64,000 nt of DNA, from the NCBI GenBank assembly GCA_963732365.1, contig CAVSZC010000005.1:1834777-1898776 (forward strand), given 5' to 3'. This DNA comes from an uncultured Bacteroidales bacterium. GTDB taxonomy: Bacteria > Bacteroidota > Bacteroidia > Bacteroidales > VadinHA17. Each line of letters starts with the position of its first letter. Within the stretch, counting starts at the first letter, position 1. Shown here piece after piece: positions 53,442 through 64,000 of this stretch. A program made the translations under genes and the position numbers. The notes under the pieces were generated by a model. It searched no databases. It saw only the letters and a program-made list of their open reading frames with translations, and was not told the origin of the DNA.

Positions 53442-54478
53442 TCCTTCGGGCGCAACTGTTCATATATCAGATCAAAATTCTGCATTATAGCCCTGGCATT
53501 CAGGCTGTCAGGACCATTCTCAAGATACAGGTTATAATAAGTCCATGCATTTTCCTTATCCCCGGTCACCAGGTAGACTTCCCCGATCGTTCCGTATAGC
53601 TTTGAAGATTTCGGGAATAATTCTGCACCCATATTGAGAACAGCAAGTGCTTCAGGGTAAGCTCTTGCGCCGAGAAACTCATTTCCGAGAATTGTGAATA
53701 CTTTCTCAGAAAGATCGTATTGGGCTGTGTCTCCCTTAATCTCGTCAAATAGCTTCTTTGAGGCTGCTATGCCGTCGCTGAGGAGTGTCTTTTGAATAAG
53801 CTCCCCGGCCGATTTCTTTTTAACATCAGGATGAGGCTCAAGAATAAAAATGTAGTCATGAGGAAGTATTGTGTCAACCTTAACAAGTTCATAACCTGCA
53901 GTATAAGCACTTTTTTTAATACGCTCTGTTATGGTCGGAGGTTTTATGCCAGGTTTCGATCTGTCAATCCCAAATTCCCTGTCTATCTCTTCGTCACGAG
54001 GGTCAAGGATCACGAGTTTTGATCCCGGTCTCAGGCTCTTTTTAAGGTTTGTCAGCAGGTTGTCCGGGTTCTCAATCATATGGTAAACCAAAACCATCAA
54101 TGCCATATCAAGGGAATGGTACGGGAACAAAGGGTCTTCAGATTCCCCAACAACAGTTTCCACATTGGAAATATTCAACCTTCTGCAACGCCCCCTGAGG
54201 TAGGCCAGGGAAGATTCATCTATGTCATTTGCATAGACTTTTCCTTCTGGACCTACTTCATTTGCAAGAAGCACAGTGTACCTGCCGCGACCGGCACCTA
54301 TCTCACCGATTGTCATTCCTGGCTGAACGCCAATTGCCTTAAACACAATGTTCGGAGGTTGCCTCTCATTAATCTCTTTTTCCCAGGGCTCTGACATATC
54401 GTTCTGACCAAGCAGTCGAGCGCTCATGATGAAGAGCACTCCGGCAACTGCCATTAAATGCTGAAATGTCAACTTCAT
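53438..54478 (-). CDS. class I SAM-dependent methyltransferase with a C-terminal TPR-like region
   Basis: Signal/anchor sequence. Motif I IGEIGAGRGRYT. Confidence 0.7.
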   Translation of the reverse strand: MKLTFQHLMAVAGVLFIMSARLLGQNDMSEPWEKEINERQPPNIVFKAIGVQPGMTIGEIGAGRGRYTVLLANEVGPEGKVYANDIDESSLAYLRGRCRRLNISNVETVVGESEDPLFPYHSLDMALMVLVYHMIENPDNLLTNLKKSLRPGSKLVILDPRDEEIDREFGIDRSKPGIKPPTITERIKKSAYTAGYELVKVDTILPHDYIFILEPHPDVKKKSAGELIQKTLLSDGIAASKKLFDEIKGDTAQYDLSEKVFTILGNEFLGARAYPEALAVLNMGAELFPKSSKLYGTIGEVYLVTGDKENAWTYYNLYLENGPDSLNARAIMQNFDLIYEQLRPKE

Positions 54479-54609
54479 TTTTTTGTTTGTTAATACTGTT
54501 TGTTTAACGTAATTCTATATTTTTTTCGGAAATGATAACCTGAATCTTATGGTGCTGCTGGGTTAAATGCAGAGGTCAATGAGTTATCGCGTGACTTCAT
54601 AATCAGAAT

Positions 54610-55824
54610 CTAAATTGACCTGATAAGGTCATTCAAAGCATGGGAAATCTCAATAATCCGGTTGCAATCAACAATCCCGGTATTATCTTTTGGTGTGTGT
54701 GTGATATCCTGATCACCTATGTTATCAATGAACCATTTTGACGACACCGCAATAGCCGGAACACCAAATTGCAAAAAGATACTGTGATCGCCCTGGGGCC
54801 ATTGGACTCCTTCTGTTATTCCACTGTAATTACTGATTACTTTTTTGGTTTGCTCAAGTATTTCATCCGGCAGGTTAAAAAGGGAAAATGACGACAGTCC
54901 TTCACGGTACCCTGCACCGTCTATGTTTATATTCAGCAGCATCCTGCTGAAATCATTCATACTTGATGATATGTAATTCATCTGACCAGGGACAGCGTAG
55001 TGATCCTCCCCGTTAAGTGCAACAATTTCAATGAGTCTGTTGCCGTTAAAATCTTTGAGCAGGTCTGACAATAACATAAGTACAATCACTCCTGTCGCGT
55101 TATCGATTGCACCAGGAGTGCCTTTTTTGGCATCAATATGGGCTGTAACCACAATCTTTGGTGAGTTGCTGTTACCCTTTCTTCCGATGACATTGTAACC
55201 TTTCCCTGGTATCCTCTTTGACTCAGACTCAAGGAAAACGGTCTTCCCGCTTTTGAGTATGAGTTTTGAACCTTCTTCTTCAGTCATGTAGACAGAGGGG
55301 ATATCGAAATCACCATCTTCTATCAATGGGAAGGGGTATACTCCTCCTGCCAGTGCTGCATTTCTGCCGGTGGCACATATTATTGCTTTTGCTCCGCTGT
55401 TCTCAAGGATCGAGATGATTTTTTGATGCTCCTCCGGATTATAAAATACAAAGTTTTTTGGCATCAATTGCTCTCTGGCAATCTCGCCGAAAAGGAATAA
55501 TATCTTATTCTTTGCGTTAACCTTTGATAATTCTTCGATGGTAGACGCGGAGACTAATTCACCCTCACCGCTGAATCCATGTGAATAAGGGCTTACCAGA
55601 ACCTCAAAGCTTTCACCATCAGAAATGAGATTTGCTCCATTTTCCTCCCAGTCAAATGCTTCGAATTCAGCCATTTCTGTTTTCCATCCGAGCAGTGCCA
55701 GCTCCTTCTCCAGGAAGAAAGTGGCCTGCCTGTTCCCCTCGCTGCCTACACATCGCTCAGTAATATCCGTACAAAGAGTTTTAAGGTAGTCTCTGCATTT
55801 TAACAGTGAATGATTTTCCGCCAT
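54610..55824 (-). CDS. M28-family metallopeptidase
   Basis: VVTAHIDAKKGTPGAIDNATG and ALNGEDH metal-ligand blocks. Confidence 0.7.
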   Translation of the reverse strand: MAENHSLLKCRDYLKTLCTDITERCVGSEGNRQATFFLEKELALLGWKTEMAEFEAFDWEENGANLISDGESFEVLVSPYSHGFSGEGELVSASTIEELSKVNAKNKILFLFGEIAREQLMPKNFVFYNPEEHQKIISILENSGAKAIICATGRNAALAGGVYPFPLIEDGDFDIPSVYMTEEEGSKLILKSGKTVFLESESKRIPGKGYNVIGRKGNSNSPKIVVTAHIDAKKGTPGAIDNATGVIVLMLLSDLLKDFNGNRLIEIVALNGEDHYAVPGQMNYISSSMNDFSRMLLNINIDGAGYREGLSSFSLFNLPDEILEQTKKVISNYSGITEGVQWPQGDHSIFLQFGVPAIAVSSKWFIDNIGDQDITHTPKDNTGIVDCNRIIEISHALNDLIRSI

Positions 55825-55878
55825 AGAACATTATCCTTATTATTCTTATTCCAATATATGAATTTTGCAATGAGTGCA

Positions 55879-56358
55879 TCATGTTTCAGATCCTTTTCTG
55901 AGGTCCACTTTCATGAATAGTACCAGCAATACGGGGATGGCAAGAACAATAGCACCAAATGCAAGCAACAGAATATTACCGGTATTGACCCCAGGCTCAA
56001 GAAGGGACATGGAAGGGTCTGAACTGTTGTAGTAAACCTTTGGCTTTGAGCCTAAGGGATATTTTTCAAGAAATTCTTCTGCAACACTCCTGTTTTTTGT
56101 GTTGAAGCTGATATTGCTGATGGTGTTAGAACTATAATCGGCACTGTCAACAGTATATGAATAGGTTATTGAAGGGTAATACTTTACGGCACCAGCTACT
56201 TCTGAACCCGTTATCAGGCCAACTGTCGAAGACCAGCTATCAGTCTCTGCAGCTTTCTTGAACTTTATAAAACCCAAAAATGTCAGGCCTAGACCGAACA
56301 CGACCATTATTACCAGACCTGGTATATCTTGTCTTCCAATTACGGCTTTCATATTCAA
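55879..56358 (-). CDS. DUF3592-like membrane protein
   Basis: A TM helix, a beta-rich domain (GLITGSEV...YYPSITYSYTV), then a second TM helix. This is the typical DUF3592 layout. Confidence 0.55.
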   Translation of the reverse strand: MNMKAVIGRQDIPGLVIMVVFGLGLTFLGFIKFKKAAETDSWSSTVGLITGSEVAGAVKYYPSITYSYTVDSADYSSNTISNISFNTKNRSVAEEFLEKYPLGSKPKVYYNSSDPSMSLLEPGVNTGNILLLAFGAIVLAIPVLLVLFMKVDLRKGSET

Positions 56359-56540
56359 TTATTTTATAATCTATTTATTCCCAGACACCCTATGTGTAAA
56401 CTTACAGTCCTTTGATGTAATCAAAAATTGGAAGATAGTCCATTTTTGATGTTGCTGACTCCGGTTACAAAACTGTCTTGCGTGCCGGAGCCCGGGCACA
56501 CCTTGCGACAAACCTGTTAATATTATTGACCGTGTTATGT

Positions 56541-57605
56541 TTAGAACTTGCTTTTATTGTCTTTAAAATAGGTTTTAATCATCTTTCCGAAGGCTTTGTC
56601 TTTTCTTCGTTTTTCTGAGACAGACGCCTGAAACCATTCTTGTTCTTTCTGAATTTTTTGATAATTATCATAGGAATCTTTGTCGATAGTTCCATTGTTC
56701 AGTGCGTCAATAACGGCACATCCGGCTTCATTAATGTGTTTACAGTCAGAAAATTTGCAATTTATTGCGATGCTAACGATCTCCTGAAATGTCGTTATGA
56801 TCCCCTCCGTATTATCTGTCATGCCCAGTTCCTTCATTCCCGGGGTGTCAATAATGATACCTCCATTTTCCAGAACAAATAATTCACGATGATCAGTGGT
56901 ATGCCTTCCCTTGTTGGTGCTCAGACTTATTTGTCCTGTTTTTAATACGTTCTTTTTCAGGAGGTTATTGATCAAGGTTGATTTGCCAACGCCCGAGGAG
57001 CCAACGACGCAATATGTTTTTCCTTTTTGTATGAAATCCAATAACTGGTCAAGCCCTTTCAGAGTCATGTTACTAAGCTGGATATACTTAACTTTTTTGT
57101 CTCTTTTTTCAAGGGTGCTGATTGCTTCCTGAATATCATTTTCGGTGGATAAATCAATCTTGCTAATTACCAGAACCGGCTCAATATTAGCTGAATAACA
57201 TATAGCCAGGTATCTTTCAAGCCGGTTTATGCTGAAATTATTGTTTATAGCCTGAACAATAAACGCAACGTCAATATTTGCAGAAATGATCTGAGTCTCA
57301 CCAAATTTGCCCACAGCCTGTCTTTCAAGTACTGATTTTCTGGGAAGTATTTTATGAATAATTGCCTGATGCGAGTCATAGGTTGTCATTGCCACCCAGT
57401 CACCGACAGCAGGAAAATCAGTTCTTGATTTTGCTGCAAATCTTAAATTGCCGGTAATTTCAGCAGCATATTCATTTTCGCCATCTGAGACGACATATCT
57501 TTCCCGGTGTTCCTGAGTCACTCTGCCGATTGAAAAGTCAGTAAGTTGATTTTCTCTCAGACAGGTAGCGAGCCCGTCATTAAATCCGAGGTCAAGGAGA
57601 TTCAT
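56541..57605 (-). CDS. rsgA: ribosome small-subunit-dependent GTPase A
   Basis: Circularly permuted GTPase: ISKID (G4) precedes GSSGVGKSTLINNL (G1). C-terminal zinc knuckle CKFSDCKHINEAGCAV. Confidence 0.9.
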   Translation of the reverse strand: MNLLDLGFNDGLATCLRENQLTDFSIGRVTQEHRERYVVSDGENEYAAEITGNLRFAAKSRTDFPAVGDWVAMTTYDSHQAIIHKILPRKSVLERQAVGKFGETQIISANIDVAFIVQAINNNFSINRLERYLAICYSANIEPVLVISKIDLSTENDIQEAISTLEKRDKKVKYIQLSNMTLKGLDQLLDFIQKGKTYCVVGSSGVGKSTLINNLLKKNVLKTGQISLSTNKGRHTTDHRELFVLENGGIIIDTPGMKELGMTDNTEGIITTFQEIVSIAINCKFSDCKHINEAGCAVIDALNNGTIDKDSYDNYQKIQKEQEWFQASVSEKRRKDKAFGKMIKTYFKDNKSKF

Positions 57606-57631
57606 TTTTGTTCAGTAATGTAAGGATATAT

Positions 57632-58056
57632 GGATAACGATCTGGCAATAAAATTAGTAGTTGTTGCCTGACGCCGCACCTGACAGAGTCCGGAGATCCC
57701 TCCTCAGACGGGGCCAGAAAGTTGTCATGTGGCGACCCGCTCGAGCGCAGTGAGCATCGGCAGTGCAAGGACTCCTTCGCCAAGGCTTCGGAGTCCGAAG
57801 AAGGGAATTCTGTGCCCCGACGAAGTGAAGCGGAATCGGGGGTACAAGGCTGATCGGGGCAGGTAACAAGTCAAGGTACACAGAGTTTGTTAGTGGGCAC
57901 TGGCGCGATCGCGGTATAAGGTATTACAAATTTGTCTTGGGTGCAGGAACAAAAGCAAAAACCGTGACACCAGGAGGCCGCCAGCCACAGAACTGTCATC
58001 TTTATTCAGAAAATTCTCGCGGCACACATTCCAATGACATATACCGACCTGTTAGC
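57632..58056. other. GC-rich non-coding element E1 (425 nt), paralogue of 63333-63787, occupying the spacer after the last cassette ORF
   Basis: It shares with E2 the left end GGATAA-N6-GGCAATAAAATTAG, the CCTGACSCCGCACC block, GGCCAGRAA...GACCC, GTGCAAGGA, an 88-nt core (57895-57982) and the right arm CCAATGACATATACCGACCTGTTAGC. No ORF is conserved between the copies. Confidence 0.6.
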
Positions 58057-58072
58057 ACACGTTTTGTTTCTT

Positions 58073-58450
58073 TTATTCATTACAATTATAGACAAGGGAA
58101 TCCAGTAATGTTTTATTCGATGAGAATACATCTAAACTACCTGATGCTTTTACCACTGTATCTCCTTGTTGAATATTGTTGTAAAAGCCACCACATTCAT
58201 TAATGAAATGCACTTTTATTAATCTCTTGTCAATCAGGCTTCTGAATTCCACAGCTGGGTAGTTATGATTTGAATAGTCAAGATACTTTCTTTCAACAAC
58301 AGCATTTAAAGCTACCCCCTTCGTTCTATTCATTTCAAAACAAACTACTGATTCATTATGAATGAACAGTTCTGGTTTAACAAACCTTAAAATTATAAAA
58401 CCAAGTATCAGTGTAACAATGATTAATGAGTTTCTTGATTTGGGTTTCAT
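58073..58450 (-). CDS. cassette ORF: membrane-anchored protein of unknown function
   Basis: 125 aa with one N-terminal TM helix (LIIVTLILGFIILRF). Flanked by attC-like sequence on both sides. Confidence 0.5.
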   Translation of the reverse strand: MKPKSRNSLIIVTLILGFIILRFVKPELFIHNESVVCFEMNRTKGVALNAVVERKYLDYSNHNYPAVEFRSLIDKRLIKVHFINECGGFYNNIQQGDTVVKASGSLDVFSSNKTLLDSLVYNCNE

Positions 58451-58470
58451 CCACTTATTTTTAAATGTGT

Positions 58471-58599
58471 GCTAACGGTTGCGTGTATGACACGTTGGGG
58501 ATTGCGGGCTTCGTACGTATCCGCCGACACAAACGCTGATGCGGGACAGAACGCTTGATTTAACCACTTAAACCCCAATGTTTAATACACGATGTTAGC
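58471..58599 (-). other. attC-like recombination site (129 bp imperfect palindrome)
   Basis: Plus strand reads GCTAAC-GGTTG-CGTGTAT-GACACG-TTGGGG ... CCCCAA-TGTTTA-ATACACG-AT-GTTAGC. Paired R- and L-box-like stems are interrupted by unpaired bases, with a roughly 70-nt central region. Confidence 0.55.
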
Positions 58600-58610
58600 A
58601 GAAGCCATTT

Positions 58611-60515
58611 TTAGAATGCTACTTGTCTTAATACTGTCTTTCCAATTGGTATAAGTTCCACTTTTTCTAATTTGCCTGTATTTTGATTGATTAATTTTGT
58701 CTGTATTTTTCCTTTTTCGTATTTTGTTTTTACGCCTTCTTTGAATGAATATCTTTCAGGCGAAGTTGGTTCATAAGTGAAGTCAATGAAATTCTCCATA
58801 TATGTTTTCCCAGTAATTTCTTTCGCATTGATTGGCGAAGCATAAAGCAACGCACCATAAGTAAAATAATGAGAACCCGTATTATCTGTGTTTATTTGAA
58901 TATCTGTTTCAAATGAAATTTTCACATAGTCATTTGGAGAAAAATCTCTTTCAATAACTATGAAGTCATTCTCAATTCTAAATTTTTCATTCGTTTTTAT
59001 ATTTTTTGTCCAGTTGGGGTTCCTTATTTTTAGTGTGAAATATGACGGATTTGCCTGGACTATTTTAAATTTAAAATCGTTTTCGGCAGGATATTGCGTT
59101 ATATTTTCAATTTGTATTTTGTTTCCATTGAGTGTGGTTTCCAAAATATTCGGCATTAATAGTGTAGCAACCAAAGTTGTTTCGTTTTCTTTCATCCAGG
59201 AATTTTGAACAAAATAAGGAGAAATTCTACCAGCGTTAGGATTACAACACACAGCTACATCTTGATGAGCAGGCGAATATTTATAGCGAGTTTGCTTTCT
59301 GTCGGGTTCAATTTCACCATTTTTAGTGCCTAACATTTCAAAGGAATTGTCGGTTTTTAAGTAAGCAATACAAGAGTGTTGAGGATTTCTTGAACCTTGT
59401 GCTGCATTATAAAAAATATTCTCCACAACATCGCCCTCATCAGCGTTTCCGGTTTTTTGAAATAACAGGCAATAACTATCCAACAATTCTTGTAGTGAAC
59501 AATACTCGTAACCGGTATGTGTAGCATCTGCGTTGCGTTCGGCAATCCATTCGTCACCAATTGCACCACCACTAATGGTGGTTACGTTTTTAATTCGTTC
59601 TAAATATATTTTTAATGCTTTGTTTATTTCCTCAATATTGCCGGCATATTTGGCTATAATTAATGCTCTTATGTGTTCAAACGTATGTACACCGTGTGAT
59701 TTTAATTTATAGGTCGGATTCAGAATGTTTTTCAGTTGTGCATCGGCTTCTGATTGATAGGTGTTTGAAAAATCCTGATAGAGAAACAAAGAATATTGTC
59801 TGTACTTTTCATCTTTTGTTTGAAAATACATTCTTTCCAAAACATCAGTAAACGTTAAGCCGTGTGAAACACCACCATTAAAAGATGTTCCGGAACTAAA
59901 CGGGCTTGAAGCATTGATGGGATAATTCTCCATTACGTTTTCTACGGCGCTTTCAACTGCTTTTAAAACTTTTTCGTCTTTTGTATATTCGTAATAGGCC
60001 AGCAAACCGCGGTATAAAGTTGCTTTTGACCACAGTTCGCCATTTTCTGAATTGAACTTGTATCGTAGCTCTTTATCATAAATACCTATATACCCATCTT
60101 CATCCTGTGTGGTTAAAATGCGTTCAATATAGTTCTTTACCTTGTCAGTATCCTTTTTATCGTCTAATAATAAAACATTTCGTAGATAACCATCCCACCA
60201 GTTTGATTGCGTTTCGCTGTTCCACCATTTGTACTGGTCGTCACCGGCCGCATCACCTTCTTTTAGATTTCCCAAGTCTTTAGCTTTGCTATTTTCCCCC
60301 AATCTTCCTGAGGCATAAATAGGATCGTTAATAAGTTCAGGCACAATCCTGTCGAGGTTTCCAACAAAACCAGCCACATCTTTTTGCATTTGTTCTTTGA
60401 GCCACCCTGTTGGTTTAACACTCCCGAAAGGCAAAGTATTGAATATTTCGGATGATTCCTGAGCATTCAGATGTATGGAACATAATAATAAAATTGTTAC
60501 TATTAGGACTCTCAT
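58611..60515 (-). CDS. GH127-like (beta-L-arabinofuranosidase / DUF1680 family) glycoside hydrolase
   Basis: Signal peptide. GYEYCS (Glu-x-Cys) and VAVCCNPN (Cys-Cys) match the Zn/cysteine catalytic-site pattern of GH127. Confidence 0.65.
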   Translation of the reverse strand: MRVLIVTILLLCSIHLNAQESSEIFNTLPFGSVKPTGWLKEQMQKDVAGFVGNLDRIVPELINDPIYASGRLGENSKAKDLGNLKEGDAAGDDQYKWWNSETQSNWWDGYLRNVLLLDDKKDTDKVKNYIERILTTQDEDGYIGIYDKELRYKFNSENGELWSKATLYRGLLAYYEYTKDEKVLKAVESAVENVMENYPINASSPFSSGTSFNGGVSHGLTFTDVLERMYFQTKDEKYRQYSLFLYQDFSNTYQSEADAQLKNILNPTYKLKSHGVHTFEHIRALIIAKYAGNIEEINKALKIYLERIKNVTTISGGAIGDEWIAERNADATHTGYEYCSLQELLDSYCLLFQKTGNADEGDVVENIFYNAAQGSRNPQHSCIAYLKTDNSFEMLGTKNGEIEPDRKQTRYKYSPAHQDVAVCCNPNAGRISPYFVQNSWMKENETTLVATLLMPNILETTLNGNKIQIENITQYPAENDFKFKIVQANPSYFTLKIRNPNWTKNIKTNEKFRIENDFIVIERDFSPNDYVKISFETDIQINTDNTGSHYFTYGALLYASPINAKEITGKTYMENFIDFTYEPTSPERYSFKEGVKTKYEKGKIQTKLINQNTGKLEKVELIPIGKTVLRQVAF

Positions 60516-62668
60516 TTTGTTGTCATTTTAAATATTAAATTGCCTCCATTCATTATATCCTCATAAGTAATAAATTGTTTATCGTATTTATTCCCATTTA
60601 AAAACCGGGTTTCATTATAAATAGCATCCTCAGAAAAGTTTGTAGCTTTAATGTTAAACTTTTTCTTGCCAGAAATACAAATACTTGCTTTTTCCACTTG
60701 TGGGCTCCCCAAAACAAACTCGCCATTTGCAGGATTAATGGGATAAAAACCTATCGTTGAAAGTATATACCAGGCACTCATTTGTCCGCAATCATCGTTA
60801 CCAATCATTCCGTCAGGTGTGTTGTTATGAAATTCATTGATCACCTGATGAATATATTTTTGTCCTGTTTTAGGTTCGGTACTGTAAGCATACAAATAAA
60901 TGATGTGATGGCTGGGCTCGTTGCCGTGTGCATATTGCCCGATCATTGCTTCTTGTCCTAAAAATTTATTTGGATTTTCGGCTTCAGTGCTAAAAAACTC
61001 ATTCAATTTTTTGCTGAAATTTTCTTTTCCGCCCAATAATTTCATAACGCCATTCAGGTCATATTGCGTTGATGTCCAAAAATATTGCCAGGCGTTTGCC
61101 TCTGTATAATCGCCGGGGTTATTCATTGGCGAAGTGGCCATTAGAGGATTAAAGGGTTTTCGCCAATTTCCTTTGGTGTCTTTTCCTCTGAAAAAGGTAG
61201 TTTCTTTGTCGTAAATGTTTTGGTAATAATTGGCTCTTTTCGAGAAAGTGTCAGCTATTTCATTTTTGCCTAATTTCTTTGCCATTTCGGCTACACACCA
61301 ATCATCGTAACCACTTTCCAACGTTCTGGAAACTGCTTCATTGTCTAATTTGTCAAAAGGGTAATAGCCATATTGATTGTACAATTCCCAATCGGAATTG
61401 ATGTGTGATTTGGTAGATGTTTCTACCATTGCTTTTAAAGCTTCGTTGGCATCAAATCCTTTAAAACCATTTTGGTAAGCAGAAAGAATCATCGGAATGG
61501 CGTGATTGCCAATCATACAATAATTGTCTTGTCCCCAAGCTGTCCAAATAGGCAGAAATCCTTTGGCTTTGTGATGAATGAGCATCGTTTGAACAATACC
61601 ATCAATTTTCTCGGGTGCTATAATTTGCAACAAAGGGAACACCCCACGGTATACATCCCAAATAGAAAGGGTAGAGTAATATTCTTTATTTGGTGCAGTC
61701 ACAATTTTATCGTCAACGCCTCTGTATTTTCCGTCAATATCGGCAATGTTGGAAGGTTGTAAAAACAAGTGATAGAGCGAAGTATAAAATATTTCTTTCT
61801 GATTTTGTGGAGCTTCAATAGTTATTCTACTTAAATAGTCTTCCCAGGTGTTAAGATTTTTTTGATATACTTTTTGAAAATCCCAATGCGGAATTTCGGT
61901 TTTCATATTGAGTTTTGCGCCTTCTACAGAAACAGAAGACAATGCAATTTTTACTTTTAATTGTCTATTCTTTGAGAGCAAAAAATCAAGTAAATATTTT
62001 GGGGCCTTTTCGTTTTCATTTTTGTCGAGAAGGGTTGATTTTACAAAAGGTTGGTCAAAAGTTAGTGTATAGAAGTATTTTCTATTCACCCAATTTTGGG
62101 TAGAGCAATAGCCAGAGATAGTAGTGTTGTTTTCAATTTTTACATCACTTTCAATTACTAATCCTTTTTGATTATTTTCGCTAAATGCAAACCGCAAGCC
62201 GTGTTGCAAATCCACTAAAACCTGCGCCTCTTTTTCCGGGAAAGTATATAGATGAAAAGCCACTCTTTCGGAGCAGGTTAGTTCTACTCTTACATCGTCT
62301 CTTTTGGTCAAAGCATAATAACCTACCTTACCAATTTCGGTTTCTTTGTAGTAAGATTTTTTTAGTTTTTCTTTTTTGGGATTGATTGGAAGTAACAATA
62401 CATCTCCCATTTCGTTAATGCCTGTTCCACTAAAGCGAGTTTGCGAAAAGCCTAACAACAGAGTGTCTTTGTACTGATAGCCACTAGTATGATTCCACCC
62501 AAAGTCGCGATTGTCGGGTCCGGGCTGTACCATTCCAAATGGCATGGAAGGTCCTGGAAAAGTATGTCCTGTTCCGTCAGTTCCGATAAAAACATTTACG
62601 AGTTTTGTGTTTTGTGCGAAACTTGTCGAACAACAAAATAGAAATATGATGAGTAATTTATTTGTCAT
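60512..62668 (-). CDS. GH92-family alpha-mannosidase
   Basis: Signal peptide, then VNVFIGTDGTGHTFPGPSMPFGMVQPGPDN, the GH92 N-terminal signature. 718 aa. 4-nt overlap with the next gene. Confidence 0.85.
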   Translation of the reverse strand: MTNKLLIIFLFCCSTSFAQNTKLVNVFIGTDGTGHTFPGPSMPFGMVQPGPDNRDFGWNHTSGYQYKDTLLLGFSQTRFSGTGINEMGDVLLLPINPKKEKLKKSYYKETEIGKVGYYALTKRDDVRVELTCSERVAFHLYTFPEKEAQVLVDLQHGLRFAFSENNQKGLVIESDVKIENNTTISGYCSTQNWVNRKYFYTLTFDQPFVKSTLLDKNENEKAPKYLLDFLLSKNRQLKVKIALSSVSVEGAKLNMKTEIPHWDFQKVYQKNLNTWEDYLSRITIEAPQNQKEIFYTSLYHLFLQPSNIADIDGKYRGVDDKIVTAPNKEYYSTLSIWDVYRGVFPLLQIIAPEKIDGIVQTMLIHHKAKGFLPIWTAWGQDNYCMIGNHAIPMILSAYQNGFKGFDANEALKAMVETSTKSHINSDWELYNQYGYYPFDKLDNEAVSRTLESGYDDWCVAEMAKKLGKNEIADTFSKRANYYQNIYDKETTFFRGKDTKGNWRKPFNPLMATSPMNNPGDYTEANAWQYFWTSTQYDLNGVMKLLGGKENFSKKLNEFFSTEAENPNKFLGQEAMIGQYAHGNEPSHHIIYLYAYSTEPKTGQKYIHQVINEFHNNTPDGMIGNDDCGQMSAWYILSTIGFYPINPANGEFVLGSPQVEKASICISGKKKFNIKATNFSEDAIYNETRFLNGNKYDKQFITYEDIMNGGNLIFKMTTK

Positions 62669-62700
62669 CTTTTTGAGTATGGTTATTTCTTAAGGTTTCT

Positions 62701-62906
62701 GCTAACGTTCGGCGGAACCGAGGATCCTGCCAAAAAACTACACTTTAGCCTGGAACTATGTCAGGGACGAGCTCATGAGCCACGAACCGTTGTGAGTGGC
62801 GAATAATGTGGCGTTGCCTCAGAGTCGCGGTGGCGCGCCGTGCCCCGCACCGATCCGTCAGCTGACGGATGTCAGGAGAGGCAATGACATATACCAACCT
62901 GTTAGC
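62701..62906 (-). other. long (206 bp) attC-like spacer E3
   Basis: Bounded by plus-strand GCTAAC (62701) and GTTAGC (62901). The outer arms can pair: GCTAAC + GTT + GG with bulges, then TGCC/GGCA. The right arm GCAATGACATATACCAACCTGTTAGC is shared with E1 and E2. Confidence 0.4.
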
Positions 62907-62916
62907 CGTAGGCTGT

Positions 62917-63294
62917 TTATTCTTTTGCGAATTCAATTAATTCAATTGGTGCTCCATTGTGTTCAATCATGGCAACCCTCACTCCATTACTTGGACTATT
63001 TGTTTGAGTTAAGATATTAAATTGGTGTATTTTGAGTTCCAAATCAAGATTCTCCACTTCAAAAGCAACATGAGGCACTTTTTGAATTAACGAGTTAATT
63101 GGCGAGTTTTTTTCAAATCGCATCCATTCTATACCGAATGGTGATGATGGAAAGCCAGAAGAATAAAATTTAAACTGGGGAAGATAATCCTCATTAGGCA
63201 TTTTTTCAGTAGTAGGAATTCCAATATGGTGGAATTTCCATCCCCATTTGACAATTGCTTCAGGAGGTTCAAAATCTTGCCTAATTTTTTTCAT
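62917..63294 (-). CDS. cassette ORF: VOC (glyoxalase/bleomycin-resistance/dioxygenase) family protein
   Basis: The roughly 125-aa protein (FHHIGIPT..., HVAFEV...) has a VOC-like pattern. The ATG at 63294 is preferred, because the track start at 63330 runs into the sequence conserved between E1 and E2. Confidence 0.6.
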   Translation of the reverse strand: MKKIRQDFEPPEAIVKWGWKFHHIGIPTTEKMPNEDYLPQFKFYSSGFPSSPFGIEWMRFEKNSPINSLIQKVPHVAFEVENLDLELKIHQFNILTQTNSPSNGVRVAMIEHNGAPIELIEFAKE

Positions 63295-63332
63295 GATTAT
63301 AGATATATATGGTTGTGAAATCCGAAGCATGC

Positions 63333-63787
63333 GGATAATTGCCCGGCAATAAAATTAGCAGGTGTTACCTGACCCCGCACCGGATTGAATCCCGGTACCC
63401 GCCAGCAGCAGGCGGGCCAGGAAACTGTCACGTCGAAGACCCTGACTGAGCGAAGCGAACGTCATGGGGTGCAAGGAGGGTACGGCGGGTTTTTTGCCAT
63501 TCAGTTACAAAGTTAGTTAAGCATTACGCGTGTCGCGGTACAACTTTGATCGGAGCCGCGAATTTATCCCCGGTTATATAGCTTATGGAGGGCACTGGAA
63601 CGATCGCGGTATAAGGTATTACAAATTTGTCTTGGGTGCAGGAACAAAAGCAAAAACCGTGACACCAGGAGGCCGCCCCTGACGGTATCGTCAGGGGCAG
63701 GCCGCACCGCTGACCACTTAACGGTCCTCTTTAGCTAGAAAGTTCTCGCGGTGCGGAAAAGCCAATGACATATACCGACCTGTTAGC
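63333..63787. other. GC-rich non-coding element E2 (455 nt), paralogue of 57632-58056
   Basis: Same modular layout as E1, with core 63590-63677. Contains local hairpins CCGG-ATTGAATC-CCGG, CCCGCC-AGCAGCA-GGCGGG and CCCCTGACGGTATCGTCAGGGG. No ORF of 60 aa or more on either strand. Confidence 0.6.
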
Positions 63788-64000
63788 TGCTGGTGGTGTT
63801 TTCAAATGTGACAAGAAACGTTTCCGGTGTCATGACAGGTAGAGAACTATCCTTGTAGTCTTTAATATTTCTTGTGATTATACAATCTACCTTTTTTTGT
63901 TCTTGTGCTGCAAAATATTGAATGGAATCCTCAAAGTCTTTAAAATCCGAGGTAAGCGCCGACTTGACAATATCACTATCAACTTTCAGAATACCTACCA
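63783..64000 (-). CDS. cassette ORF: C-terminal part of a PIN-domain (VapC-like) toxin; the gene runs off the right edge
   Basis: My own translation of the minus strand gives ...FEDSIQYFAAQEQKKVDCIITRNIKDYKDSSLPVMTPETFL...*. The stop TAA (63783-63785) lies inside the GCTAAC arm. Confidence 0.6.
   Translation of the reverse strand, partial: VGILKVDSDIVKSALTSDFKDFEDSIQYFAAQEQKKVDCIITRNIKDYKDSSLPVMTPETFLVTFENTTSS

What the first reader, a model, noticed from the sequence alone, without database searches (positions are those of the whole stretch)
57632..64000. Integron-like cassette array in a Bacteroidota-looking genome, with no integrase in view
Reading the minus strand, four consecutive ORF ends are each followed within 0-16 nt by GCTAAC (plus-strand GTTAGC at 63782, 62901, 58594 and 58051). 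These are the PIN fragment (stop 63783-63785), the VOC gene (stop 62917-62919), the GH127-like gene (stop 58611-58613) and the 125-aa ORF (stop 58073-58075). Three of the four sit in a longer shared arm, GCTAACAGGTYGGTATATGTCATTG. Two spacers close with the inverse site GTTAGC (plus GCTAAC at 58471 and 62701), 20-32 nt before the next start codon. The spacer 58471-58599 is an imperfect palindrome with bulges. This is the layout of integron attC sites (R'' RYYYAAC ... R' GTTRRRY, folded-strand hairpin) between promoterless, co-oriented cassettes. PIN toxins and VOC proteins are classic cassette cargo. Given the orientation, intI/attI would lie beyond 64000, or this is an integrase-less CALIN. 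The array ends 38 nt from the rsgA start codon.
Basis: partly seen in the sequence, partly recalled or inferred. Interest (0 to 1): 0.7.

Follow-up and report, generated by a model that had tools for sequence, protein, structure and literature searches.

The report
Integron-like cassette array, non-IntI recombinase
The last 6.4 kb of the window is the far end of a gene-cassette array like an integron's, but relatives in uncultured Bacteroidales pair it with oversized recombination sites and a recombinase that lacks the integron hallmark, which appears to be an undescribed variant of this gene-capture machinery.

Summary
Four co-oriented minus-strand cassettes are separated by GC-rich sites with AAC/GTT ends. 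These are a PIN fragment, a VOC-like gene, a GH92+GH127 pair and a 125-aa ORF.

The shared arm is the 5' end of a conserved site of about 241 nt ("type A"). I found 164 copies in one-strand arrays in Bacteroidales MAGs and none elsewhere in the window.

In 132 of 148 cassettes, the three bases after GTT at the 5' border complement the three bases before AAC of the cassette's own 3' site (shuffle null 38). Within one integrated site this holds in only 34 of 133. That is the integron cassette signature, with crossover at GTT.

In relatives the arrays start at a conserved attI-like site, downstream of a co-oriented tyrosine recombinase. Two samples with the same recombinase diverge exactly at that GTT.

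This recombinase is Xer/XerA-like. It lacks the IntI-specific insertion and carries a new N-terminal domain with weak HARP/XPB-DRD fold similarity.

In the window:
- sp2 (129 nt) is a classic-sized hairpin.
- sp3 is a type A variant.
- sp1 and sp4 are type A/type B hybrids that cannot close. sp4 has ATT in place of GTT.

So this end of the array looks partly fossil. The recombinase lies outside the window and could not be checked.

The parts
63783..64000 (-). C-terminal 71 codons of a PIN (VapC-like) toxin gene, cut by the window end. The stop codon TAA lies inside the R'' box GCTAAC.
   Evidence: PIN_3 E = 4e-4, below cutoff. 72-96% aa identity to cassette genes in 8 loci. In L026 the cassette is an 82-aa plus 143-aa gene pair.
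63333..63787 (-). Site sp4, a hybrid. The type A 5' part is 63650-63787 (R'' GCTAAC, L'' CGGTATATG ... GTCACGGTTTTTGC). It is fused to a type B 3' part at 63333-63649. The R' reads ATTATCC, so the invariant G of GTT is mutated.
   Evidence: Type A profile positions 2-134 only, E = 1e-35. B-type internal and tail motifs. The homologous cassette border in L069 reads GTTAGCC.
62706..63338 (-). VOC-like cassette. ORF 62917-63294 (or from 63330), plus its own site sp3.
   Evidence: 91% identical to L050 and 83% to L069, with homology ending at the GTT borders on both sides. The family is found in more than 549 metagenome loci. Glyoxalase_4 only at E = 0.18.
62701..62906 (-). Site sp3 (206 nt), a type A variant with canonical ends GCTAAC ... 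CCGCCGAAC-GTTAGC. The middle differs and the L' box is weak.
   Evidence: Type A profile matches in three pieces: positions 2-32, 194-225 and 227-240. The variant recurs at least 4 times in L069 and also in L058. Folding is not better than shuffles, z about -0.7.
58476..62705 (-). Two-gene cassette: GH92 (60512-62668) and a GH127-like gene (58611-60515), overlapping by 4 nt, plus site sp2.
   Evidence: Pfam Glyco_hydro_92 E = 9e-158. GH127 catalytic domain E = 4e-14. The border triplets AGC/GCT are complementary.
58471..58599 (-). Site sp2 (129 nt), a classic-sized attC-like hairpin: GCTAAC-ATC-GTGTAT ... ATACAC-GCAACC-GTTAGC.
   Evidence: Folds with closed R and L stems and bulges. The bottom (plus) strand gives -23.3 kcal/mol, z = -2.4; the top strand gives -20.1. 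90% identical to L033 3159-3281.
58073..58450 (-). 125-aa ORF of unknown function, carried in the last cassette (57638-58475).
   Evidence: ORF list. No Pfam or NCBIfam hit.
57632..58056 (-). Site sp1, an A/B hybrid like sp4. Type A part 57955-58056; type B part 57632-57954. R' is GTTATCC, with GTT at 57638-57636, 31 nt before the rsgA start.
   Evidence: 88 nt are 98% identical to sp4 across the junction. Alignment. B tail motif. Folding is no better than shuffles, z = 0.27.
56541..57605 (-). rsgA (ribosome small-subunit GTPase), a core gene at the visible end of the array.
   Evidence: RsgA_GTPase E = 2.5e-51. Orthologues of 85-98% identity lie in Bacteroidales-type contigs. In L149 and L150 there are no sites around it.
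56461..56539 (-). Relic of a type B site head (CAT-AAC-ACGGTCAATAATATTAACAGG ... GCACGCAAGACAGTTTTGTAA), directly after the rsgA stop codon.
   Evidence: Pattern matches with 0 mismatches and 0 expected. Conserved in the closest relative, L151.

Best explanation
Window 57632-64000 is the distal part of a chromosomal gene-cassette array. The array belongs to an integron-like system of uncultured Bacteroidales.

Each cassette is a compact unit without room for an obvious promoter, followed by a structured site. The site begins NNN-AAC and ends GTT-NNN.

A tyrosine recombinase encoded upstream of the array, on the same strand, is proposed to exchange strands at the conserved GTT. It would do this between two cassette sites (excision) or between a cassette site and an attI-like site next to its own gene (insertion).

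Shown here:
- The arrays and the site families exist.
- The crossover position is at GTT.
- The same cassettes occur in different contexts.
- An attI-like site exists, and the first cassette differs between two samples that carry the same recombinase.

Inferred:
- The adjacent Xer-like recombinase is the catalyst.
- The substrate is the folded bottom strand, as in integrons.
- The recombinase's extra N-terminal domain helps it recognise the branched, folded site. That domain has a fold weakly like HARP/XPB-DRD, which as I recall bind forked or distorted DNA. It would stand in for the I2 helix that IntI uses.

In this window the array end is partly decayed. sp2 and sp3 keep intact AAC/GTT boxes, so the GH92+GH127 cassette may still be excisable. 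sp1 and sp4 are type A/type B hybrids whose two ends cannot pair, and sp4 has ATT for GTT. The PIN-VOC junction and the last cassette are therefore probably frozen.
For: Site family:
- 164 copies of the arm-bearing repeat lie in 52 of the 64 fetched loci, always on one strand within a locus, spaced 0.5-2.9 kb.
- The full unit is 241-242 nt, and conservation ends at ...CCGAAC-GTT.

Crossover position:
- 132/148 cassettes have complementary border triplets (null 38 +/- 4.7, maximum 55).
- Excluding the commonest triplet pair, the count is 75/91. Within one integrated site it is 34/133, or 8/107 with the same exclusion.

Cassette form:
- In 141/148 cassettes the longest ORF is co-oriented with the site.
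- The median gap is 11 nt from the stop codon to R'' and 45 nt from the border to the start codon.

Structure:
- The internal hairpin shows compensatory changes: CG to UA in 24 and 50 sequences, AU to GC in 29.
- The type B L-stem covaries between L052 and L059.
- The bottom strand is more stable than the top in 109/110 units, p = 9e-20.

Recombinase:
- It lies upstream of the array and co-oriented in L007, L035, L010, L066 and L067.
- In L065-L068 it follows the rnf operon, and in L066-L068 recG and rseC lie upstream of that.

attI-like site:
- TACCTTTAGTANACATATAAACRA-GTT occurs once in each of the 8 recombinase-associated loci and nowhere else.
- L067 and L068 are 99.8-100% identical up to GTTAT and 25-36% identical after it.

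Window specifics.
Against: - The recombinase and attI were not seen for this window's own genome. The window ends 213 nt after the last site, and its proteins were not on record.
- rsgA orthologues in other MAGs have no array beside them. This cluster could therefore be a detached, integrase-less fragment.
- Two of the four window sites cannot form the closing stems.
- In the closest relative, L151, the content difference breaks inside the terminal site, not at GTT.
- In L007 and L066 the triplet after the attI-like GTT does not complement the head of the first type A site downstream.
- Catalysis by the adjacent recombinase, use of a single strand, and the role of the N-terminal domain are inferences. 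The fold match is weak: Foldseek E = 0.018, TM 0.33-0.44.
- The IntegronFinder attC model could not be run.
Confidence: 0.8

Rival explanations
1. It is an ordinary integron or CALIN. A canonical IntI with the I2 insertion, encoded elsewhere in these genomes, moves the cassettes. The Xer-like gene next to the arrays is a bystander.
For: - The border logic (AAC/GTT, triplet complementarity, an attI-like site) is the integron layout as I recall it.
- Integrons have been reported in Bacteroidota (PMC8618304).
- Only 8-21 kb around each array was visible.
Against: - tblastn with IntI1 over the 64 loci then held, plus the window, found only recombinases without the insertion.
- The Xer-like gene lies directly upstream, co-oriented, with the attI-like site 85 nt to 2.5 kb downstream of it, in every locus that reaches an array head.
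- Sites of 241-390 nt are far outside the attC size range as I recall it (57-141 nt).
Confidence: 0.1
2. The GC-rich elements are REP/MITE-like intergenic repeats or transcription terminators. They pile up between genes and have nothing to do with cassette mobility.
For: - They are intergenic, GC-rich, structured and highly conserved.
- A relic lies after the core gene rsgA.
- Hybrids and internal breakpoints show ordinary recombination among copies.
Against: - There is no copy in the other 57.6 kb of the window.
- Copies are strictly one-stranded and occur in arrays only.
- The triplet test gives 132/148 against 34/133.
- Identical cassettes occur in different contexts, with breaks at GTT.
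Confidence: 0.03
3. The sites act mainly as structured RNA in the cassette transcripts, for example as 3'-UTR stabilisers, processing sites or small RNAs.
For: - They sit 0-16 nt after stop codons on the coding strand.
- They show compensatory base changes.
Against: - The strand complementary to the mRNA folds better in 109/110 units.
- No Rfam family matches.
- An RNA role does not explain the border-triplet rule or the attI-like site.
Confidence: 0.05

Closest known systems
Sedentary chromosomal integrons (for example the Vibrio superintegron with its VCR/attC repeats)
   Same: - The platform sits at a similar chromosomal position in several of the loci.
- Long arrays of compact co-oriented cassettes are separated by highly homogeneous sites with AAC...GTT ends.
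- Border triplets travel with the downstream cassette.
- An attI-like site sits next to the recombinase gene.
- Cargo includes toxin-antitoxin genes (PIN, HigB, ParE, HepT) and glyoxalase-like genes.
- The bottom strand folds better.
   Different: - The recombinase lacks the IntI-specific insertion (I2 helix) and has an extra N-terminal domain.
- Sites are 241-390 nt and branched, against 57-141 nt hairpins (attC range from my own knowledge).
- The same site sequence is shared across many MAGs, not confined to one species.
Integrons with 'inverted' integrase orientation (Treponema, Chlorobi and similar; from my own knowledge, see also PMC2426708)
   Same: The recombinase gene is on the same strand as the cassettes, upstream of them.
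   Different: Those integrases are, as far as I recall, IntI proteins with the additional domain. This one is not.
Xer/XerA chromosome-dimer resolvases
   Same: Best sequence and fold matches of the catalytic part: XerA 5hxy at E = 2e-37, in one uninterrupted stretch. The NCBIfam XerA model scores 209-213 bits, just under its cutoff of 220. The RKHRHY catalytic residues are conserved.
   Different: - It heads a cassette array with an attI-like site instead of acting at a 28-bp dif site.
- It has a conserved 70-residue N-terminal domain and a long variable linker.
Lambda Int / attP (from my own knowledge)
   Same: An extra N-terminal DNA-binding domain on a tyrosine recombinase, together with a complex site of about 240 bp that holds several conserved internal motifs.
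   Different: No sequence or fold match to the arm-binding domain. This system uses arrays of cassettes, not a single prophage junction. This is an analogy only.

Membership tests
Integron (IntI + attI + attC cassettes) | Integrase of the IntI clade carrying the IntI-specific insertion (I2 helix region) | tested here: not met
   In relatives, the PRK15417 model matches protein 141-311 to profile 26-196 and protein 330-403 to profile 256-329, so about 40 residues are missing. TIGR02249 scores 199-206 bits against a cutoff of 265. VchIntIA 2a3v matches only in two pieces, while XerA matches in one. The window's own genome could not be tested.
Integron (IntI + attI + attC cassettes) | Cassette sites bounded by inverted core boxes with conserved AAC ... 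GTT | tested here: met
   AAC and GTT are invariant in 110 aligned sites. In the window, sp2 and sp3 have GCTAAC...GTTAGC, sp1 has GCTAAC...GTTATC and sp4 has GCTAAC...ATTATC.
Integron (IntI + attI + attC cassettes) | Crossover at G|TT, so that the bases after GTT belong to the next cassette and pair with that cassette's own R'' | tested here: met
   132/148 across cassettes against 34/133 within one site. In the window, 2 of 3 testable cassettes fit, both with the commonest triplet.
Integron (IntI + attI + attC cassettes) | attC is a single imperfect hairpin of roughly 57-141 nt with L boxes, an unpaired central spacer and extrahelical bases (size range and features from my own knowledge) | tested here: inconclusive
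   sp2 (129 nt) and a 119-nt type A variant fit. Standard type A (241 nt) and type B (330-390 nt) are too long and are branched. A bulged T and a 1 x 4 internal loop lie between the R and L stems. Equivalence to the canonical extrahelical bases was not established.
Integron (IntI + attI + attC cassettes) | Hit to the IntegronFinder attC covariance model | not testable with these tools
   The model is not available here. No Rfam family, attC or other, matched these spacers.
Integron (IntI + attI + attC cassettes) | attI insertion site adjacent to the integrase gene | tested here: met
   A conserved site of about 45 nt ending ...ATAAACRA-GTT occurs once per recombinase locus, in 8 loci. L067 and L068 diverge there. 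It is not in the window, as expected if the window holds only the distal end.
CALIN (cluster of attC sites lacking an integrase) | Two or more sites with no integrase nearby (within about 4 kb, as I recall the definition) | tested here: inconclusive
   No recombinase lies in 54000-64000, but the array runs off the window 213 nt after the last site.
REP/BIME or MITE-type dispersed repeats | Copies dispersed through the genome's intergenic regions, on both strands | tested here: not met
   The nhmmer profile and pattern searches find copies only in 56461-63787, all on one strand.

The most novel reading that the evidence does not exclude
Bacteroidales carry a second kind of integron. It has a chromosomal gene-capture platform with an attI-like site, and its recombinase is a Xer-type enzyme without the I2 helix. 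It may be either an independent invention or a lineage that branched before IntI acquired that helix. The recombinase handles folded, branched bottom-strand sites of 240-390 nt with the help of a HARP/DRD-like domain that senses DNA structure. By my reasoning, standard tools would miss it, because as I recall IntegronFinder requires the IntI-specific domain and limits attC length.
Probability: 0.5. Interest if true: 0.85.

Novelty: new variant of a known kind. Interest (0 to 1): 0.8.

Why it matters
Integron recombination of folded single-stranded sites is held to depend on one innovation of IntI, the I2 helix (PMC7790495, PMC4792948). Here a natural, widespread system follows the same cassette logic with a recombinase that lacks that helix. 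It would give a direct test of how single-strand recombination can evolve, either a second time or before I2 appeared.

It would also reveal a large cassette gene pool in anaerobic Bacteroidales from sediments, sludge and digesters. The cargo includes toxin-antitoxin genes and glycoside hydrolases. Current integron surveys probably do not count this pool.

The five literature searches found no paper describing it. The recombinases are annotated only as 'tyrosine-type recombinase/integrase' or 'XerD'.

Tried and rejected
- Exact-protein look-ups of GH92, GH127 and RsgA, tried in order to read past 64000: none on record. The closest relatives found were L151 (94.6% nt identity around rsgA, 3.9 kb) and L069 (VOC protein 92% identical). 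Neither reaches an array head.
- Known RNA families, including group II intron parts, which I considered because group IIC introns target attC: no Rfam match at gathering score or at E <= 10 in the spacers.
- The idea that each long spacer, sp1 and sp4, is one giant hairpin: rejected. Their 3' parts belong to another site family, type B, seen intact in L052, L059 and L066. Their ends do not pair.
- The idea that ATTATCC at 63333-63339 is unrelated to a cassette border: rejected. It aligns with GTTAGCC at the same cassette's border in L069.
- rsgA as a mobile cassette: not supported. L149 and L150 have rsgA without sites, and its flanking triplets do not match. The flanking relics remain unexplained.
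- The rsgA-VOC adjacency in L092 and L143: no sites there, so probably coincidence.
- Phage and plasmid carriage: no arm in IMG/VR and no match in PLSDB.
- A covariance model of the 241-nt site was not built. I judged that its length would take calibration past the time limit, and used an nhmmer profile instead.
Full report
**1. What is in the window**

From 64000 down to 56541, all real genes are on the minus strand. In order they are:
- the last 71 codons of a PIN-type gene (63783-64000)
- a 125/137-aa VOC-like ORF (62917-63294, or from 63330)
- GH92 (60512-62668) and a GH127-like gene (58611-60515), overlapping by 4 nt
- a 125-aa ORF (58073-58450)
- rsgA (56541-57605)

Four GC-rich spacers lie between them, at 52-58% GC against 29-40% in the cassette genes:
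- sp4, 63333-63787
- sp3, 62701-62906
- sp2, 58471-58599
- sp1, 57632-58056

Every coordinate in the finding checks out.
- The hexamer GTTAGC/GCTAAC is under-represented in the window: 11 copies against about 20 expected. Six of the eleven sit at these borders.
- The 24-nt arm occurs three times, against none in shuffles.
- sp2 folds as an imperfect hairpin with closed terminal and inner stems and bulges.
- No Rfam family matches any spacer.

**2. The arm belongs to a large site family**

Scanning one genome per species for the arm returned 64 loci. Nearly all are from Bacteroidales or Rikenellaceae MAGs, and many hold several copies.

BLAST found 164 full copies of the arm-bearing segment. 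Within each locus they are always on one strand, spaced 0.5-2.9 kb.

Extending the flanks showed the true unit ("type A") is 241-242 nt. It runs from NNN-AAC-AGGT-CGGTATATG to CATACCG-CCGAAC-GTT-NNN. Conservation collapses right after GTT.

A profile of 110 such units hits the window only at sp4, sp1 and sp3. Nothing matches in the other 57.6 kb. This is therefore not a genome-wide REP-type repeat.

**3. Cassette logic**

If these are integron-type cassettes, the bases after GTT at a cassette's 5' border should pair with the bases before AAC of that cassette's own 3' site. They should not pair with the site they physically abut.
- Across 148 cassettes the three-base complement rule holds in 132. 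The shuffle null is 38 +/- 4.7, with a maximum of 55.
- Leaving out the commonest pair, the rule holds in 75 of 91 cassettes.
- Within one integrated site it holds in only 34 of 133, or 8 of 107 with the same exclusion.

Cassettes are compact:
- The longest ORF is co-oriented with the site in 141 of 148.
- The median gap is 11 nt from the stop codon to the site.
- The median gap is 45 nt from the border to the start codon.

The window's VOC cassette (63338 to 62706) recurs in L050 (91%) and L069 (83%) with different neighbours. Homology stops at the GTT borders.

**4. Structure of the sites**

The consensus fold closes the R stem (NNNAAC/GTTNNN) and the L stem (CGGTAT/ATACCG). A bulged T and a small asymmetric loop lie between them. 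Three inner branches follow.

One inner hairpin shows abundant compensatory changes.

A natural 119-nt short version keeps only the R stem, the L stem and the GTTTTTGC/GCAAAAAC stem. It folds very strongly, with z = -6 for the top strand and z = -10 for the bottom.

The strand complementary to the coding strand is the more stable one in 109 of 110 units. This fits a folded bottom-strand DNA substrate and argues against a role in the mRNA.

A second family ("type B", 330-390 nt) has the same AAC...GTT ends. Its 20-bp L stem covaries between loci.

**5. The platform in relatives**

In L007, L035, L010, L066 and L067 the gene lies upstream of the array on the same strand.

In L065-L068 the recombinase follows the rnf operon within a few genes. 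In L066-L068 recG and rseC lie upstream of that operon.

Downstream of the recombinase lies a conserved attI-like site, TACCTTTAGTANACATATAAACRA-GTT-NNN.
- It is present once in each of the eight recombinase-associated loci and nowhere else.
- The triplet after GTT complements the next type A site's head in 4 of 6 cases.
- Two samples with the same recombinase protein (L067, L068) are 99.8-100% identical up to ...AAGTTAT and unrelated after it. They carry different first cassettes at this site.

**6. The recombinase is not an IntI**
- Its best matches are archaeal XerA. In the PDB this is 5hxy at E = 2e-37, in a single stretch. The NCBIfam XerA model scores 209-213 bits against a cutoff of 220.
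- Integron-integrase models match only in two pieces that skip about 40 residues. These are the IntI-specific insertion. The scores fall below cutoff.
- The catalytic residues are conserved.
- It carries a conserved N-terminal domain of about 70 residues with no Pfam match, then a variable, disordered linker.
- Modelled alone (pLDDT 87.6), that domain's top seven PDB matches are the SMARCAL1 HARP domain (E = 0.018, probability 0.90) and the XPB damage-recognition domain. As I recall, both bind forked or distorted DNA. The match is weak and I treat it as a lead.
- The family is abundant and is annotated only generically.

**7. State of the window's array**
- sp2 is an intact short site.
- sp3 is a recurrent type A variant with canonical ends but a weak L' box.
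- sp1 and sp4 are hybrids. A type A 5' part is joined, at a motif shared by both families (GTCACNGTTTTTG), to a type B 3' part. Their two ends cannot pair.
- sp4's border reads ATT where the same cassette's border in L069 has GTT.
- A type B head relic follows rsgA. It is conserved in the closest relative, L151. That relative carries a different gene upstream of the terminal site, with the breakpoint inside the site.

This end of the array therefore looks old and partly frozen. Ordinary recombination between site copies has contributed to it.

Other genomes with 85-88% identical RsgA have no sites near rsgA. I cannot say whether the window shows the tail of the main array or a detached integrase-less cluster.

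**8. Comparison and verdict**

In operation this matches a sedentary chromosomal integron. The attI-like site, the cassette borders, the bottom-strand bias and the toxin-antitoxin cargo all agree.

It fails membership on the defining integrase feature and on site size.

Five literature searches found no description of it. The sites are absent from the phage-contig and plasmid collections searched.

I rate it a new variant of a known kind, of high interest. Two caveats apply: the catalytic link and the strand mechanism are inferred, and the window itself shows only the distal cassettes.

Noticed in passing
window 56461-56539: A type B site head (CAT-AAC-ACGGTCAATAATATTAACAGG...) sits directly after the rsgA stop codon, so rsgA is bracketed by site fragments. 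The closest relative, L151, keeps it and has about 960 extra nt with two small membrane ORFs after it.
   Followed up: partly
L033 2249-3281 and L044 1-960: A second, shorter tyrosine recombinase (about 290 aa, with the YLFEGQ motif) is encoded inside a cassette. An sp2-type site precedes it and a type A site follows it.
   Followed up: no
L010 3701-5479; proteins P0026-P0117: The linker between the N-terminal domain and the catalytic core ranges from about 40 to about 230 residues. In L010 it contains ARDHQGS-like tandem repeats.
   Followed up: no
L021, L042, L055, L061, L045, L033, L008, L064: Short contigs (1-3 kb) with type A sites are binned to Methanofastidiosum, WWE3, Cloacimonadota, Verrucomicrobiota, Bacillota, Desulfovibrionales, Obscuribacterales and Anaerolineaceae. 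This may be mis-binning of repeat-rich contigs or cassette spread across phyla.
   Followed up: no
L092 250-1791; L143 9014-10369: A VOC-like gene of the same family lies immediately downstream of an rsgA homologue. In L092 I read the flanks and found no recombination sites. L143 was not inspected beyond the motif scan.
   Followed up: partly
window 58611-62668: The GH92 and GH127-like genes, whose products both begin with hydrophobic N-terminal stretches, overlap by 4 nt and travel as one 4.2-kb cassette. This is much larger than the 662-nt median cassette. No homologue of either gene was found in the 148 loci fetched at that point.
   Followed up: partly
L066 11215-21215: One array mixes seven type A sites with two type B sites. 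Its cargo includes HepT/nucleotidyltransferase, ParE, HigB, glyoxalase, PMT_2 and GH3 genes.
   Followed up: partly
L065 12112-12921, L067 11710-12504, L068 11839-12504, L010 (minus strand, between 3700 and 2492): In several genomes an Exo_endo_phos (endonuclease/exonuclease/phosphatase family) gene sits between the recombinase gene and the attI-like site, so it is part of the fixed platform and not a cassette. For L010 this rests on a similar-sized ORF that I did not check against Pfam.
   Followed up: no
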